Shown: positions 15,456-56,544 of the stretch, one piece after another
Layout of the letters: each line of letters starts with the position of its first letter
How positions within the stretch are numbered: the first letter of the stretch is position 1
NCBI GenBank assembly: GCA_964016885.1
Contig: OZ024741.1
Span: 369,148,001 to 369,212,000, forward strand
Length of the DNA stretch: 64,000 nucleotides
Direction of reading: 5' to 3'
Source: Eledone cirrhosa
Lineage: Eukaryota
Program-made: the position numbers and the translations under genes
The notes under the pieces: model-generated
Seen by the model: only the letters and a program-made list of their open reading frames with translations
What the model was told of the DNA's origin: nothing
The model's database searches: none

Positions 15456-15513
15456 ATACTATGATCATTTCAATGACCTGGTTCCGTATGAATTCGGTGA
15501 TATCATCAGGTAT
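15456..15513 (-). ncRNA. Type I hammerhead ribozyme, family F1
   Basis: AUAC-CUGAUGA-stem II-GAAA-UGAUCA-UA-GUAU. Confidence 0.8.
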
Positions 15514-15679
15514 TCGAAATATAACATATAAAATCCATGGGTCCGAAAATCGCTATGGGTCCAACTAGCTGCTTTCACCTCAGTCAGTCGCCCTCAAGTG
15601 ATGGCTACTCGGTCTACTAATGACCATCTGGTGAGGGGGTGAAGGCTTATAATGTACTACCACCTCTCCGTCAAAGAGA

Positions 15680-15770
15680 AAAAAGAAAGAAAGAAAGAAA
15701 GAAAGAAAGAAAGAAAGAAAGAAAGAAAGAAAGAAAGAAAGAAAGAAAGAAAGAAAGAAAGAAAGAAGAA
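15680..15770. repeat. (GAAA)n microsatellite
   Basis: Direct observation. Confidence 0.95.
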
Positions 15771-17393
15771 AAGTCAGCGCAAGGGTCACATTAAAGTCAG
15801 GTTAGAAATCGCTGCGAAAAATGTTATTCCAAAGAACCTATATCTTAACAGAGGCATATATAGTAGGCGTCTGTATGGTATAATGTGTGAACAGAAAATT
15901 GGAACGTTAAACTTATGTTTAGAGTTATAGTTAAATAAAAAAAAAAAAAAAAAAAAAGTTATTAAAAAATTAGAGGTTTGGGTTGCGAGATTTATTTAAT
16001 GAAATTACAGAGAGTCTTATATGAAAAAGTTTAAGTGTATTATAGGGAATCTCGATAAGAGTAAAGATTAAAGCCTTTGATTGTAAATCCCAGCCAGCAC
16101 CTCCTAACCATGTGTCAGCCAGTTTCGAGTGGTATCGTCTAGCGAAAGAAATGGAAATTATGTTTTCCGAGTACTCTAGGAACCTAACTGCCTTGGGCTT
16201 CGGGTGTGCTAGCGGGAAGTCTACCATCTTCAACAGGCCATCGTCTATACCAACCGAATACCAAACGAATACTATAAATTCACACAGGAGTGGTTTATTT
16301 ACGTGCCAGTAGGGGGAGGCATGATACAGCTAATAGTTATGCTTAGGCCTAGAGTTTATAGGTATAATATGGCGGTCAAAACAGGCGGCGCGGCGAGCCC
16401 CGGGGCGAAGCGAGCTGCTCCGAGTAATTTTGTTTACAGAAAGAGGGGAAATTTATTTTTCCAAGCACTCAAGGAAGGCTGAACTACCCGAGCGCCCGGC
16501 GCGCAGCCGGGAAAGACACCACATCAGTCGAAAATGGTAAAACCCGATGAAATGCGCCAATAGACTATATCTAAGTCCCAGTTAGTCCGGGTTATAAGTA
16601 GTGTGGTTCTTTGGTGGGTAGGGGGCCATGATAGGTGCATAATGAGAGTAAAACCTGAGTAAAGGAACAATAAGCAGAAAAGCACACAAAAAAATAAAAG
16701 CAGAATACAAAGATAAAAGTAAAATACATAAATAAAACGCCGTCATAGCTAGGGTGGTGATGTAGTAAGACGGAAGTATATAAGAACATATCGGAGGAAT
16801 CAAAGCGAAGGGGAATTACAATATAGATCAAGTTGTAGTTAGATAATACGAGGTTATACAAATAGATATAGAGGATGGAAGAGATGGAATGGTATCAGGT
16901 GGTACCTAGTGTATGTTCGAGTCTCAGAATTCAGTGTGAATCACAAAAGCCCTGAAGTATAGGGTAGAGAATTCAGTCAATACAATACATGTTATAGTAT
17001 AATACGTAGAATTTTGTCGGAGTCCGAATATTCCTGACAAGGAAGCAGCATTGGATCAGGTGGGCGGTAGACAAAGCACAGAGCAGCCAAAATCCGAATG
17101 GTAAGTAGATCAGTCAATCCCATGCTGGCAATAGCTGTACACTGAAGTCAGTGCCGCTGTTCATTATTACATCTGAAAGTGCTCAACATTTCTGGAGCAT
17201 TATTTATTTGGTTCACCACTGGAGAGAATTGGTCATTCCATATGGTCAATCTTGATGTAATATTATGGAGAGTACTCAACGTAATGCAGCTCACCCGTCT
17301 TCATTTGTGTAGTTGGTGGTGCGAATACGGAGTTAATTATTATAAATAAAATAACAGGAGGCTGGACTGGTGTAAATCCTTGAAAGGTTTATT

Positions 17394-17451
17394 ATACTAT
17401 GATCATTTCAATGACCTGGTTCCGTATGAATTCGGTGATATCATCAGGTAT
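17394..17451 (-). ncRNA. Type I hammerhead ribozyme, family F1
   Basis: Same motif as 15456-15513. Confidence 0.8.
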
Positions 17452-19074
17452 TCGAAATATAACATATTAAATCCATCGGATGCTGCTTCCTTGTCAGGAA
17501 TATTCGGACTCCGACAAAATTCTACATGTTATGCTATAACATGTATAGTTTTGACTGAATTCTCTACCCTATACTTCAGGGCTTTTGTGATTCACACTGA
17601 ATTCTGAGACCCGAACATACACTAGGTACCACCTGATACCATTCCATCTCTTCCATCCTCTATATCTATTTGTATAACCTTGTATTATCTAACTGAAACT
17701 TGATCTATATTGTATTTCCCCTTCGCTTTGATTCCTCCGATATGTTCTTATATACTTCCGTCTTACTACATCACTACCCTAGCTATGACCGCGTTTTATT
17801 TATGTATTTTACTTTTATCTTTGTATTCTGCTTTTTTTGTGCTTTTCTGCTTATTGTTCCTTTTACTCAGGTTTTACTCTCATTATGCACCTATCATAGC
17901 CCCCTACCCACAAAAGAACCACACTACTTATAACCCGTACTAACTGGGACTTAGATATAGTCTATTGGCGTATTTCATCGGGTTTTACCACTTTCGACTG
18001 ATGTGGTGCCTTTCTCGGCTGCGCGCCGGGCGCTCGGGTAGTTCAGCCTTCCTTGAGTGCTTGGAAAAATAAATTTCTCCTCTTTCGGTAAACAAAATTA
18101 CTCGGAGCAGCTCGCTTCGCCCCGGGGCTCGCCGCGCCGCCTGTTTTGACCGCCATATTATACCTATAAACTCTAGGCCTAAGCATAACTATTAGCTATA
18201 TCATGCCTCCTCCTACTGGCACGTAAATAAACCACTCCTGTGTGAATTTATAGTATTTGTTTGGTATAGACGATGGCCTGTTGAAGATGGTAGACTTCCC
18301 GCTAGCACACCTGAAGCCCAAGGCCGTTACGTTCCTAGAGTAATCGGAAAAATTAATTTCCATTTCTTTCGCTAGACGCTACCACTCGAAACTGGCTGAC
18401 ACATGGTTAGGAGGTGCTGGTTGGGATTTACAATCAAAGGCTTTAATCTTTACTCTTATCGAGATTCCCTATAATACACTTAAACTTTTTCATATAAAAC
18501 TCTCTCTGTAATTCCATTAAATAAATCTCGCAACCCAAACCTTTAATTTTTTTATAATTTTTATTTTTTATTTTTATTTTTATTTTTATTTTTATTTTTA
18601 TTTTTATTTTTATTTTTATTTTTATTTTTATTTTTATTTTTATTTTTATTTTTATTTTTATTTTTAAATTTTTAAATTTTTAATTTAATTTCATCCTATA
18701 ACTCTAAACATAAGTTTAACGTTCCAATTTTCTGTTCACACATTATACCATACAGACGCCTACTATATATGCCTCTGTTAAGATATAGGTTCTTTGGAAT
18801 AAAATTTTTCGCGGCGATTTCTAGCCTGACTGTAGTGTGACCCTTACGCTGACTTTCTTCTTTCTTTCTTTCTTTCTTTCTTCTTTTTCTCTTTTTTCTC
18901 TTTGACGGAGAGGTGGTAGTACATTATAAGCCTTCGCCCCCTCACCAGATGGTCATTAGTAGACCGAGTAGCCATCACTTGAGGGCGACTGACTGAGGTG
19001 AAAGCAGCTAGTTGGTCAGTCGTCCTCTTTGTCTTTGATTTTCGGACCCATGGATTTTATATGTTATATTTCGA

Positions 19075-54681: not shown

Positions 54682-54834
54682 TTCATTATTTCTGAAGACG
54701 GCATATATATGTGTTGGTATGTATATTAAATTTGATAGTTTGTATAATTTTGTATAATTTTGTACATAGATCTGTTAAATATGCATGCCAATTCTAACAC
54801 ATATATGTCCTAGAAACGATCGTTAAATAATGAA
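54682..54834 (+). ncRNA. Type I hammerhead F11 with long stem II
   Basis: TTCATTATTT-CTGAAGA-(114-nt stem II region, ATATATGTGTTGG..CTAACACATATAT)-GAAA-CGATCG-TT-AAATAATGAA, with a perfect 10-bp stem I. Confidence 0.85.
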
Positions 54835-55178
54835 CTTTTTTTGTTTAATATAAGGAACTGTTTCATTGTTTTATTCATTATTTTTTTAATATTTTATATA
54901 CATATATATATATATATATATACATATATATATAGTTTAGCGTGGTTTTTTATATGAAATCGTGTGTCGAAACAAATATTGTTATACTTGGGGAGTGTCA
55001 TATTTGTGTAATATTGCCAGAATTAATAACAGAACACACTCACTGTTTGGTTGGTTTTCGCTTCTCGCTGTCTTTTATATCTGCGATCTAACTTAATCGG
55101 TCCTCAATGTTGCCTTTGACTGACCGACGGTCAAAAATAATACAGATACAATGTAGACACAAACACATATATATAGTT

Positions 55179-55220
55179 TACATAAATCTTTCGTTGCACA
55201 TCTGCAACATCGTCAGTGGT
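55179..55220 (-). ncRNA. Minimal hammerhead F5
   Basis: Same motif as 27495-27536. Confidence 0.55.
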
Positions 55221-56502
55221 GTTATATTCATTGTTCCTCCTGTTGTGTTGTATGTCTACGCCATTTTTTTTATTCAGTCTATCTATATATTTATTTACTT
55301 ATTTGCTTGTTTGTTTATTTTATTTTGTCTTCTTTGCGCATGCGTTTGCGTGTGTGTACGGTGTTGTGTGTGCTGTGTGACTAGTGTGTCTCGTGTTGTG
55401 TCTGCTGGGTGACTAGTGTGTGTTTATGTGCTTGTTGTTATTGTGCTTGTGTATGTATTTATTTATCTTATTTTATTTTATTTTGTAAATTATGTAAACT
55501 ATATATATGTGATTGTGTCTACATTGTATCTGTATTATTTTTGACCGTCGGTCAGTCAATGGCAACATTGAGGACCGATTAAGTTAGATCGCAGATATAA
55601 AAGACAGCGAGAAGCGAAAACCAACCAAACAGTGAGTGTGTTCTGTTATTAATTCTGGCAATATTACACAAACATGACCCTCCCCAAGTATAACAATACA
55701 TATATATATATATATATATATATATATATATATATATATATATATATACATATATATATATAAACATATATATATATACATATATATATACATATATATA
55801 TATACATATATACATATATATATATATACATATATATATATATATACATATATATATACATATATATATATATACATATATATATATATATATATATATA
55901 TATACATATATATATATATATACGTATATATATATATATATATATACGTATATATATATATATATATATACATATATATATATATATACATATATATATA
56001 TATACATATATATATATATATACATATATATATATACATATACATATATATATATATACATATATATATATATATATACGTATATATATATATATATACG
56101 TATATATATATATATATATATATATATATACACATATATATATATATATATATATATATATATACATATATATATATATATACATATATATATGTATAAA
56201 TATATATACATATATATATATACATATATATATATATATATACATATATATATATATACATATATATATATATATACATATATATATATATACATATTGT
56301 TATACTTGGGGAGGGTCATATTTGTGTAATATTGCCAGATTTAATAACAGAACACACTCACTGTTTGGTTGGTTTTCGCTTCTCGCATCTGTGTCTTTTA
56401 TATCGGTAATCTAATATACTCAGTCCTCAATGTTGCCATTGACTGACCGGCGGTCAAAATTAATATAGATACAATATAGACACAAACACATATATATAGT
56501 TT

Positions 56503-56544
56503 ATCATAAATCTTTCGTTGCACATCTGCAACATCGTCAGTGGT
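56503..56544 (-). ncRNA. Minimal hammerhead F5
   Basis: Same motif as 27495-27536. Confidence 0.6.

What the first reader, a model, noticed from the sequence alone, without database searches (positions are those of the whole stretch)
15456..56544. Hidden ribozyme field: 22 type I hammerhead motifs in 11 families within about 41 kb
Seen in sequence: stem I / C(U)UGANG(A)A / stem II / GAAA / stem III / NUH / stem I' motifs at 15456, 17394, 19075 (F1); 23518, 40428 (F2); 23786 (F3); 27210, 30276, 30391 (F4); 27495, 55179, 56503 (F5); 30602 (F6); 33618, 36992, 37730 (F7); 38904, 39165 (F8); 41613, 42552 (F9); 43141 (F10); and 54682 (F11). F3 and F10 have core defects and F5 has a weak stem I. The families share only the catalytic core, with different but complementary stems, and several are closely followed by AATAAA and (TA)n. 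Established: PLE pseudo-LTRs and retrozymes carry type I hammerheads. Inference: much of the unexplained non-coding sequence here belongs to a diverse community of ribozyme-bearing retroelements, several with no coding partner nearby, that share (TA)n as a landing site.
Basis: partly seen in the sequence, partly recalled or inferred. Interest (0 to 1): 0.85.

Follow-up and report, generated by a model that had tools for sequence, protein, structure and literature searches.

The report
Penelope hammerhead tails blanket a genome
The 22 hammerhead-ribozyme motifs are really in the sequence and sit at the ends of Penelope-type jumping genes (8 families) or in non-coding repeats likely copied by them (3 families); this is a known kind of element, estimated here at about one motif per 8,000 bases across what is likely an octopus genome, with self-cutting predicted but untested.

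Summary
All 22 motifs exist at the stated places. A descriptor recovers 16 of 22, against 0.15 per shuffled window. Helix II of F2 covaries. Helix III is self-complementary even when not required.

It is not a special field. Sixty evenly spaced 10-kb genome samples give about 1.25 motifs per 10 kb, or 2.7-4.9 x10^5 genome-wide. The window is 2-3 times richer, and density tracks (TA)n content.

'No coding partner' mostly fails. Eight families (F2-F7, F10, F11) lie at the ends of Penelope-like elements (PLEs) with RT and endonuclease genes; three have that gene in this window. F1 (1.7-2.1 kb), F8 (about 470-550 nt) and F9 (747 or about 1,000 nt) are ORF-less tandem units of retrozyme type. Copies end in (TA)n as back-to-back pairs with one short and one long tail (45 of 54).

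Unexplained: a pyrimidine mismatch at pair 4 of helix II (10 of 23 clusters) and a family-wide U4A core (F10). Cleavage and expression are untested. The scan reported this system before on other pieces of this genome.

The parts
15456..15513 (-). F1 hammerhead (palindromic helix III, C-C mismatch at helix II pair 4); short-tailed end of the F1 insertion
15460..17398 (-). One full ORF-less F1 unit, cut site to cut site, 1,939 nt
17394..17451 (-). F1 hammerhead, second tandem copy
19075..19132 (+). F1 hammerhead on the inverted arm (17480-19318); helix II worn; predicted cut after 19128
23518..23583 (+). F2 hammerhead, 5'-truncated PLE end; predicted cut after 23575
23786..23832 (-). F3 hammerhead, U3-A8 core; this copy has lost U16.1; family belongs to a PLE whose RT is 70% identical to PLE B
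27210..27247 (-). F4 hammerhead (U3-A8 core), worn copy; F4 is the end of a separate PLE with ORF1 and RT
27495..27536 (-). F5 minimal hammerhead (extra U before G10.1, 2-bp helix I), about 280 nt past the endonuclease of PLE A
27780..30265 (-). PLE A, broken ORF: RT (DKS, RYVDD), Cx4CxxC linker, C-terminal GIY-YIG-like endonuclease
30276..30313 (-). F4 hammerhead, short arm of a back-to-back pair
30391..30428 (+). F4 hammerhead, long arm of the pair
30602..30652 (-). F6 hammerhead with 4-bp helix III; truncated end of a PLE seen whole at L217 and L218
31260..33419 (-). PLE B, frameshifted ORF with Hydra-clade motifs RWK, DKT, CxCx5C
33618..33695 (-). F7 hammerhead in the pseudo-LTR between a partial copy (endonuclease 35074-35574) and PLE B
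36992..37069 (+). F7 hammerhead on the inverted arm (35489-37175); predicted cut after 37059
37730..37807 (+). F7 hammerhead, short-tailed fragment
38904..38946 (-). F8 hammerhead, left arm of a back-to-back retrozyme pair
39165..39207 (+). F8 hammerhead, right arm; family forms ORF-less tandem arrays of 468-551-nt units; predicted cut after 39201
41613..41737 (-). F9 hammerhead with 96-nt helix II region
41618..42557 (-). One full ORF-less F9 unit, about 940 nt
42552..42676 (-). F9 hammerhead, second tandem copy
43141..43191 (-). F10 hammerhead with family-wide U4A core and a helix III hairpin; PLE end
48288..50324 (-). PLE C ORF (CxCx5C linker, Hydra-like), inverted arm of the insertion that ends in F11
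54682..54834 (+). F11 hammerhead, 114-nt helix II region, C-C mismatch at pair 4; young family with copies 99-100% identical; predicted cut after 54824
55179..55220 (-). F5 hammerhead
56503..56544 (-). F5 hammerhead past the endonuclease of the second PLE A copy
56784..58750 (-). Second, 5'-truncated PLE A copy (RT C-terminal part and endonuclease)

Best explanation
The motifs are type I hammerheads at the 3' ends (pseudo-LTRs) of at least eight Penelope-like retrotransposon families and in the units of three ORF-less tandem families that are likely copied by Penelope enzymes; they pile up here because all these elements end in (TA)n tracts, likely their insertion target, and self-cleavage is predicted, not shown. 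Steps. (1) Shown: each family has fixed 3' ends a set distance past the cut site, ragged 5' truncations and a following (TA)n. (2) Inferred from known PLE biology: the GIY-YIG endonuclease cuts (TA)n DNA and the RT starts copying inside the RNA, 20-210 nt downstream of the ribozyme, and usually stops early. The ribozyme is therefore the part most often left behind without its ORF. (3) Shown: insertions are mostly back-to-back pairs with one short and one long tail. Inferred: both cut DNA ends prime on the same RNA at two fixed start points. (4) Shown: copies run through the cut site. Inferred: the template was uncut RNA or a re-joined circle. (5) Predicted: most ribozymes cannot form helix III alone and would cut as dimers in tandem transcripts, or with help from the PLE protein, releasing unit-length RNA. 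For F1, F8 and F9 that RNA would circularise like known retrozymes.
For: Motifs far above chance. With helix III not required, 39 of 44 hits still pair there and 30 are fully self-complementary, against 11.6 and 8.6 by permutation. In 24 F2 homologues picked by sequence, 9 of 9 helix II pairs change on both sides: 41 cells against 14.7 shuffled, 0 of 500 shuffles as high. PLE links: F5 in 22 of 25 loci; F11 in the window and L225; F7 in the window; F3 at L216 and F6 at L217 and L218; F10 in 4 of 25 loci; F4 at L383; F2 at L213. ORF-less tandems: F8 468-551 nt, F9 747 or about 997 nt with 45 copies in four 10-kb stretches, F1 tandem in 11 of 25 loci. (TA)5 downstream in 237 of 248 copies. Pairs: 98 divergent against 16 convergent; short plus long tail in 45 of 54. 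Motif count correlates with (TA)n share, rho 0.68. Literature: PMC4209133, PMC8557442, PMC11167929, PMC7229834.
Against: No cleavage or expression data. Only 1 of 10 motifs folds clearly better than shuffles as a monomer (F9, z -3.5; the others lie between 0.3 and -2.0). Covariation was counted for one family only. Helices I and III of F2 show almost none (1 of 11 pairs changes on both sides), and the structure was drawn by eye from these sequences. The F2 and F4 links rest on one locus each. No sequence tie between F1, F8 or F9 and a named autonomous partner was found among the fetched loci. 9 of 54 pairs break the short-plus-long rule, and F4, F5 and F8 could not be scored because of internal TA runs. 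The F5 helix III self-duplex has no predicted stability (0.0 kcal/mol).
Confidence: 0.85

Rival explanations
1. The window is a special hotspot or selected cluster of ribozyme elements with a function of its own.
For: 16 hits in 64 kb against 1.25 per 10 kb on average (bootstrap p about 0.04; about 0.002 for the 42-kb part chosen after the fact); the flanking 200 kb hold only 9.
Against: (TA)n share is 11-13% here against 4.9% in the samples and 1% in the flanks, and it predicts motif count (rho 0.68). Four of the 59 samples hold 5 motifs in 10 kb. Every family searched is dispersed over many contigs.
Confidence: 0.05
2. The folds are conserved as binding or priming signals for the PLE protein, and most do not cleave in the animal.
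For: Copies run through the cut site. Weak monomer folding. Family-wide core or helix changes in F10 and F5. In an anole PLE, ribozyme mutants did not affect insertion in vitro and no RNA reads ended at the cut site (PMC11167929, section 3 part 2).
Against: The U3-A8 swap keeps a core pair in F3 and F4; NUH triplets and palindromic helix III are kept across 45 clusters. F8 and F9 units are bounded by the motif, as in retrozymes shown to cut and circularise (PMC7229834).
Confidence: 0.2
3. F1, F8 and F9 are ordinary satellites amplified at DNA level, or stray pseudo-LTRs of full PLEs not yet seen, and not RNA-mobilised retrozymes.
For: F9 forms an array over more than 40 kb with units 97% alike, which suggests DNA-level expansion. 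Only 25-50 loci per family were read.
Against: Dispersed copies have fixed 3' ends, inverted 5' arms and (TA)n flanks like PLE insertions. Cut-to-cut units hold no PLE coding sequence. The F8 unit folds strongly as a circle (z -9.3, inflated by its TA tract).
Confidence: 0.15
4. Chance pairing in AT-rich, palindromic DNA.
For: One satellite (L268) gave 13 doubtful hits; the descriptor was tuned on the window.
Against: About 1 hit per 600 kb shuffled against 74 observed; leave-one-helix-out test; covariation.
Confidence: 0.01

Closest known systems
Minimal type I hammerheads in pseudo-LTRs of metazoan Penelope-like elements (Cervera and De la Pena 2014, PMC4209133; parts 1-2 of 4 read)
   Same: Palindromic helix III, extra base before helix II (F5), U3-A8 core (F3, F4), very short helix I (F5), many families per genome, mostly lone truncated copies, opposite-strand pairs 100-700 bp apart.
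   Different: Scale: 2,000-9,000 per genome there against an estimated 2.7-4.9 x10^5 here (different descriptors). Helix II regions up to 114 nt, a pyrimidine mismatch at pair 4, and a family-wide U4A core are not in the parts I read.
Hydra clade of PLEs, including Hydra-1_Obim of Octopus bimaculoides (Craig et al. 2021, PMC8557442; section 11, passages, supplement part 2 and searches)
   Same: RWK, DKT and CxCx5C motifs in PLE B; CxCx5C in PLE C; C-terminal endonuclease; (TA)n target; hammerhead near the 3' end; partial tandems, inverted 5' copy and tail.
   Different: That paper lists one octopus Hydra family; here many. Tail length difference is about 70-150 nt against 30-40 bp. None of the 11 motifs equals the listed Hydra-1_oBim motif (compared by eye).
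Neptune and Nematis clades of PLEs (PMC8557442 passages)
   Same: CX2-5CxxC linker before the endonuclease in PLE A and in the F4 partner; DKG in the F4 partner.
   Different: Clade not settled by a tree.
Metazoan non-LTR retrozymes (Cervera and de la Pena 2020, PMC7229834, parts 2-3 of 6; Li et al. 2026, 10.64898/2026.07.22.740005, parts 1-2 of 5)
   Same: ORF-less tandem units, one type I hammerhead each, from monomers to long arrays (F8, F9, F1).
   Different: PLE-type two-armed insertion into (TA)n is visible here. Circular RNA is not shown here.
Poseidon element of Anolis in vitro (Frangieh et al. 2024, PMC11167929; passages and section 3 part 2)
   Same: Reverse transcription starts at two internal points that define the tail; AT-rich target; uncut RNA as template.
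   Different: There the start site did not differ between strands; here the two arms mostly take different end points.

Membership tests
Type I hammerhead ribozyme | Core CUGANGA / GAAA / NUH in type I order | tested here: met
   19 of 22 canonical or U3-A8 with an intact NUH at family level; F3 copy lacks U16.1, F10 has U4A
Type I hammerhead ribozyme | Three helices supported by covariation | tested here: met
   Helix II in F2; helix III by leave-one-out; helix I shows little two-sided change in F2; other families not counted
Type I hammerhead ribozyme | Match to an Rfam hammerhead model at the gathering score | tested here: not met
   Best 21.7 bits against 52 for HH9; none (150 of 177 rows shown)
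Type I hammerhead ribozyme | Self-cleavage | not testable with these tools
   No assay
EN+ Penelope-like element (F2-F7, F10, F11) | [quoted passage not shown] | tested here: met
   RT by Pfam for PLE A, by motif for the others; endonuclease by motif only, Pfam gave no GIY-YIG hit; the F4 partner's endonuclease lies beyond the stretch translated
EN+ Penelope-like element (F2-F7, F10, F11) | Hammerhead in the pseudo-LTR; partial tandem, inverted 5' copy, tail | tested here: met
Hydra clade (PLE B, PLE C) | RWK, DKT, CxCX5C linker, (TA)n target | tested here: met
   PLE B has all. PLE C has CxCx5C in the window; a fuller copy reads RWR and DKT
Hydra / Neptune / Nematis clade | Placement in an RT tree with reference elements | not tested
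Non-LTR retrozyme (F1, F8, F9) | Tandem units each with a type I hammerhead and no ORF | tested here: met
Non-LTR retrozyme (F1, F8, F9) | Small unit, 150-450 bp (up to about 1 kb) | tested here: inconclusive
   F8 close, F9 at the upper end, F1 about twice the largest reported
Non-LTR retrozyme (F1, F8, F9) | Expressed as circular RNA | not testable with these tools
   No reads could be laid; see Tried and rejected

The most novel reading that the evidence does not exclude
This genome holds 3-5 x10^5 hammerheads, more than any count I found in print and about 30 times the density reported for axolotl. They include an undescribed long-helix-II subclass whose conserved C-C mismatch at pair 4 is a docking site for helix I or for the PLE protein, an active U4A core variant, and retrozymes up to 2 kb. 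Their two-armed insertions record priming of one RNA from both cut DNA ends at two fixed points.
Probability: 0.3. Interest if true: 0.65.

Novelty: new member of a known kind. Interest (0 to 1): 0.4.

Why it matters
The element class is known, so the window itself is ordinary for this genome. What could matter: (1) scale. A repeat annotation of Octopus vulgaris (PMC13282606, term search of the main text) never mentions ribozymes, and hundreds of thousands of potential RNA cut sites could shape transcript ends. (2) Dozens of natural ribozyme families in one genome expose conserved features outside the core, such as the pair-4 mismatch, that can be tested in vitro. (3) Young PLE and ORF-less families side by side make two open questions testable: what PLE hammerheads are for, and which enzyme moves animal retrozymes.

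Tried and rejected
Rfam scans gave only microsatellite-driven miRNA noise and one sub-threshold HH9 match.

Sequencing runs for an F9 unit: no RNA holder listed, so no reads were laid. This says nothing on expression.

The idea that F4 and F5 are two ribozymes of one element was rejected: F4 follows F5 in only 2 of 25 loci and has its own PLE. The idea that F6 belongs to PLE B was rejected.

A type III scan of the window found none; type II and scrambled orders were not scanned. Pfam found no GIY-YIG domain. The homologue search with PLE B RT gave 1,099 relatives but no informative names, so it did not fix the host. A search for a partner of F1, F8 or F9 among fetched loci found only own-family matches in the rows printed, the first 25 divergent matches per unit.

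Lunse et al. 2017 (PMC5785218), the paper most likely to describe such variants, was not available to read. The preprint's supplements and the supplements of PMC4209133 were not seen; they may show the pair-4 mismatch or U4A.

Paper searches without a hit for the claim: hammerhead + C-C mismatch + stem II (0); hammerhead + U4A (0); retrozyme + cephalopod and hammerhead ribozyme + octopus (only PMC8557442 relevant). These are word searches of an open-access library only.

Dropped rows: L268 (13 hits) from the density count, and L066 from alignment A1 (22 of 23 picked homologues used). Array ends and longer F1 contexts were not read.
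Full report
Observation. The window is AT-rich animal DNA full of (TA)n tracts and retroelement fragments. The host is likely an octopod. That is inference from the by-eye likeness of PLE B to Hydra-1_Obim, the 3.0-Gb genome and recalled repeat features; no call named the host. 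All 22 motifs read as described. A first descriptor found 11 of them plus one weak extra, against 0.11 per shuffle. A relaxed version, tuned on the window, found 16 and nothing else, against 0.15 per shuffle. Rfam gives one sub-threshold HH9 match.

Are the folds selected? Two tests avoid the descriptor's circularity. In 600 kb of genome samples, motifs chosen on core, helix I and helix II alone had the first pairs of helix III in 39 of 44 cases and a fully self-complementary segment in 30, against 11.6 and 8.6 by permutation. In 24 F2 homologues picked by sequence similarity (two from the window, 22 of 23 picked), all 9 helix II pairs change on both sides: 41 cells against 14.7 shuffled, with no shuffle of 500 as high. 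Helices I and III of F2 vary little, relatedness can inflate such counts, and I drew the structure by eye. As monomers only F9 folds clearly better than shuffles. The helix III segments cannot form hairpins in 9 of 11 families, but most form self-duplexes, as expected for dimeric PLE hammerheads (PMC4209133).

Defects. F3 is intact in the family (GUC, U3-A8 core); only this copy is damaged. F10 has A at position 4 in essentially all copies. F5 has a 2-bp helix I in 24 of 24 copies read, with the extra base and G10.1-C11.1 pair of the published minimal consensus.

Is it a special field? Sixty evenly spaced 10-kb stretches on large contigs gave 87 hits. Thirteen from one satellite (L268) were dropped, leaving 74 in 59, against about 1 per 600 kb shuffled. 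That extrapolates to 2.7-4.9 x10^5 motifs (bootstrap). The sample is not formally random and the descriptor misses worn copies. The window has 2.5 per 10 kb (3.8 in 15-57 kb) and the 200-kb flanks 0.45. (TA)n share is 11%, 4.9% and 1.0% in the window, the samples and the flanks, and it correlates with motif count (rho 0.68, 79 stretches). For comparison, PMC7229834 reports 126,247 motifs in axolotl (28 Gb by the 2026 preprint), over 6,000 in coral and about 5,000 in mussel, with other descriptors.

Who owns the motifs? I searched the genome with 10 of the 11 families (not F7) and read the 25-30 best loci of each. All are dispersed repeats; first-look candidates ranged from 66 to 1,737 for the ribozyme ends and are not copy numbers. 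Eight families are PLE ends. F5 follows the endonuclease of PLE A in 22 of 25 loci, this window included. F7 sits between a partial and a full copy of PLE B. F11 belongs to PLE C, whose ORF lies on the inverted arm 4 kb away and appears 98% identical next to F11 at L225. F3 and F6 precede RT-endonuclease genes at L216 and at L217 and L218. F10 lies 1 kb past an endonuclease in 4 of 25 loci. F2 ends a two-armed insertion with an RT-endonuclease remnant at L213. F4 bounds a 4.7-kb unit with an ORF1 and an RT bearing DKG and Cx4CxxC. PLE B has the Hydra-clade motifs and PLE C most of them; PLE A has the Neptune or Nematis linker. No tree was built.

Three families have no ORF between successive cut sites. 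F8 forms arrays of 468-551 nt with an inverted arm. F9 forms arrays of 747 or about 997 nt, with 45 copies in four 10-kb stretches of one locus. F1 has units of 1.7-2.1 kb, tandem in 11 of 25 loci, with a longest stop-free frame of 155 codons. These meet the DNA-level definition of non-LTR retrozymes; no specific helper was identified.

Insertion anatomy. (TA)5 follows within 600 nt in 237 of 248 copies, at one or two family-specific distances, for example 48 or 139 nt in F2, 52 or 159 in F3, 21 or 91 in F6, and 70 or 208 in F11. In F8 part of that tract is internal to the unit. Opposite-strand neighbours are divergent in 98 cases and convergent in 16 (the latter not de-duplicated). In F1, F2, F3, F6, F10 and F11, 45 of 54 pairs with both ends measurable have one short and one long tail. 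I ran this pairing test after reading the idea in earlier scan notes. It fits the two internal RT start points and the tail shown for an anole PLE (PMC11167929). Since every copy extends past the cut site, the template was uncut or re-joined RNA (inference).

Mechanism. Shown: motifs, ownership, fixed ends, (TA)n flanks, two-armed layout. Established for the class: GIY-YIG cutting of AT-rich DNA, internal RT initiation, 5' truncation, (TA)n preference of Hydra elements, low and dimer- or protein-dependent cleavage. Inferred: priming from both DNA ends, and mobilisation of F1, F8 and F9 in trans. Untested: cleavage, expression, circles.

Unexplained detail. Among 45 sequence clusters of motifs in all fetched DNA, 23 have a long, scorable helix II. 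Pairs 2, 3, 5 and 6 are formed in 22-23 of 23, but pair 4 is a pyrimidine-pyrimidine mismatch in 10 of 23, C-C in most of those inspected, including F1, F2 and F11. Some of these clusters may be distant kin. Its place, about where loop II meets helix I in canonical hammerheads (recalled), suggests a tertiary or protein contact; this is speculation. Word searches found no description, but the most relevant paper could not be read.

Verdict. It is a known kind of element at a striking but sample-based scale, already noted by this scan on other pieces of the same genome. Interest 0.4.

Noticed in passing
window 5552-14948: Two Gypsy-type LTR retrotransposon bodies back to back (gag-pol 5552-9151 on minus, 10359-14272 on plus, frameshifted), with a 458-bp repeat pair at 9268-9725 and 14491-14948 that is 98.7% identical. 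Observed only.
   Followed up: no
window 3-4545, 19328-21411, 59309-61331: Several copies of a non-LTR RT family, RTE-like by recalled motifs; Pfam RVT_1 at 2651-3319.
   Followed up: partly
window 44021-45191 and 51059-52256: An RT fragment (Pfam RVT_1, CR1/L2-like by recall) and a zf-RVT-bearing fragment (L1/Tx1-like by recall).
   Followed up: partly
window 21526-21861: Short frame resembling a Tc1/pogo DDE transposase fragment (recalled motif).
   Followed up: no
window about 46190-46390: A 200-base assembly gap (N) inside a (TA)n-rich stretch.
   Followed up: no
window 46933-48254, 50627-51226, 52520-53133: Degenerate tandem repeats mirrored on both sides of PLE C; probably its long 3' region.
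   Followed up: no
L268 (G000:C7:30000001-30010000): A tandem repeat with 13 weak hammerhead-like hits (UUGAAAA core, A/U-run helix II) spaced about 500-1,100 bp; dropped from counts; satellite or worn retrozyme.
   Followed up: no
L206-L209 (G000:C2:312.29-312.33 Mb): F9 array over more than 40 kb that switches from 747-nt to about 997-nt units; the longer unit has an internal duplication of about 250 nt.
   Followed up: partly
L210:5341-5809: The F8 unit carries a (TA)n-like tract inside itself, of variable length, possibly captured target DNA.
   Followed up: partly
window 22086-22185, 25534-25633, 46080-46179, 62503-62599: A dispersed repeat of about 100 bp next to (TA)n tracts, SINE-like end.
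   Followed up: no
L226-L285 and other loci: At least 45 sequence clusters of hammerheads in the fetched DNA, including further U3-A8 families (UUGAUAA, UUGAGAA cores) and canonical-looking GUCC/GGAC forms.
   Followed up: partly
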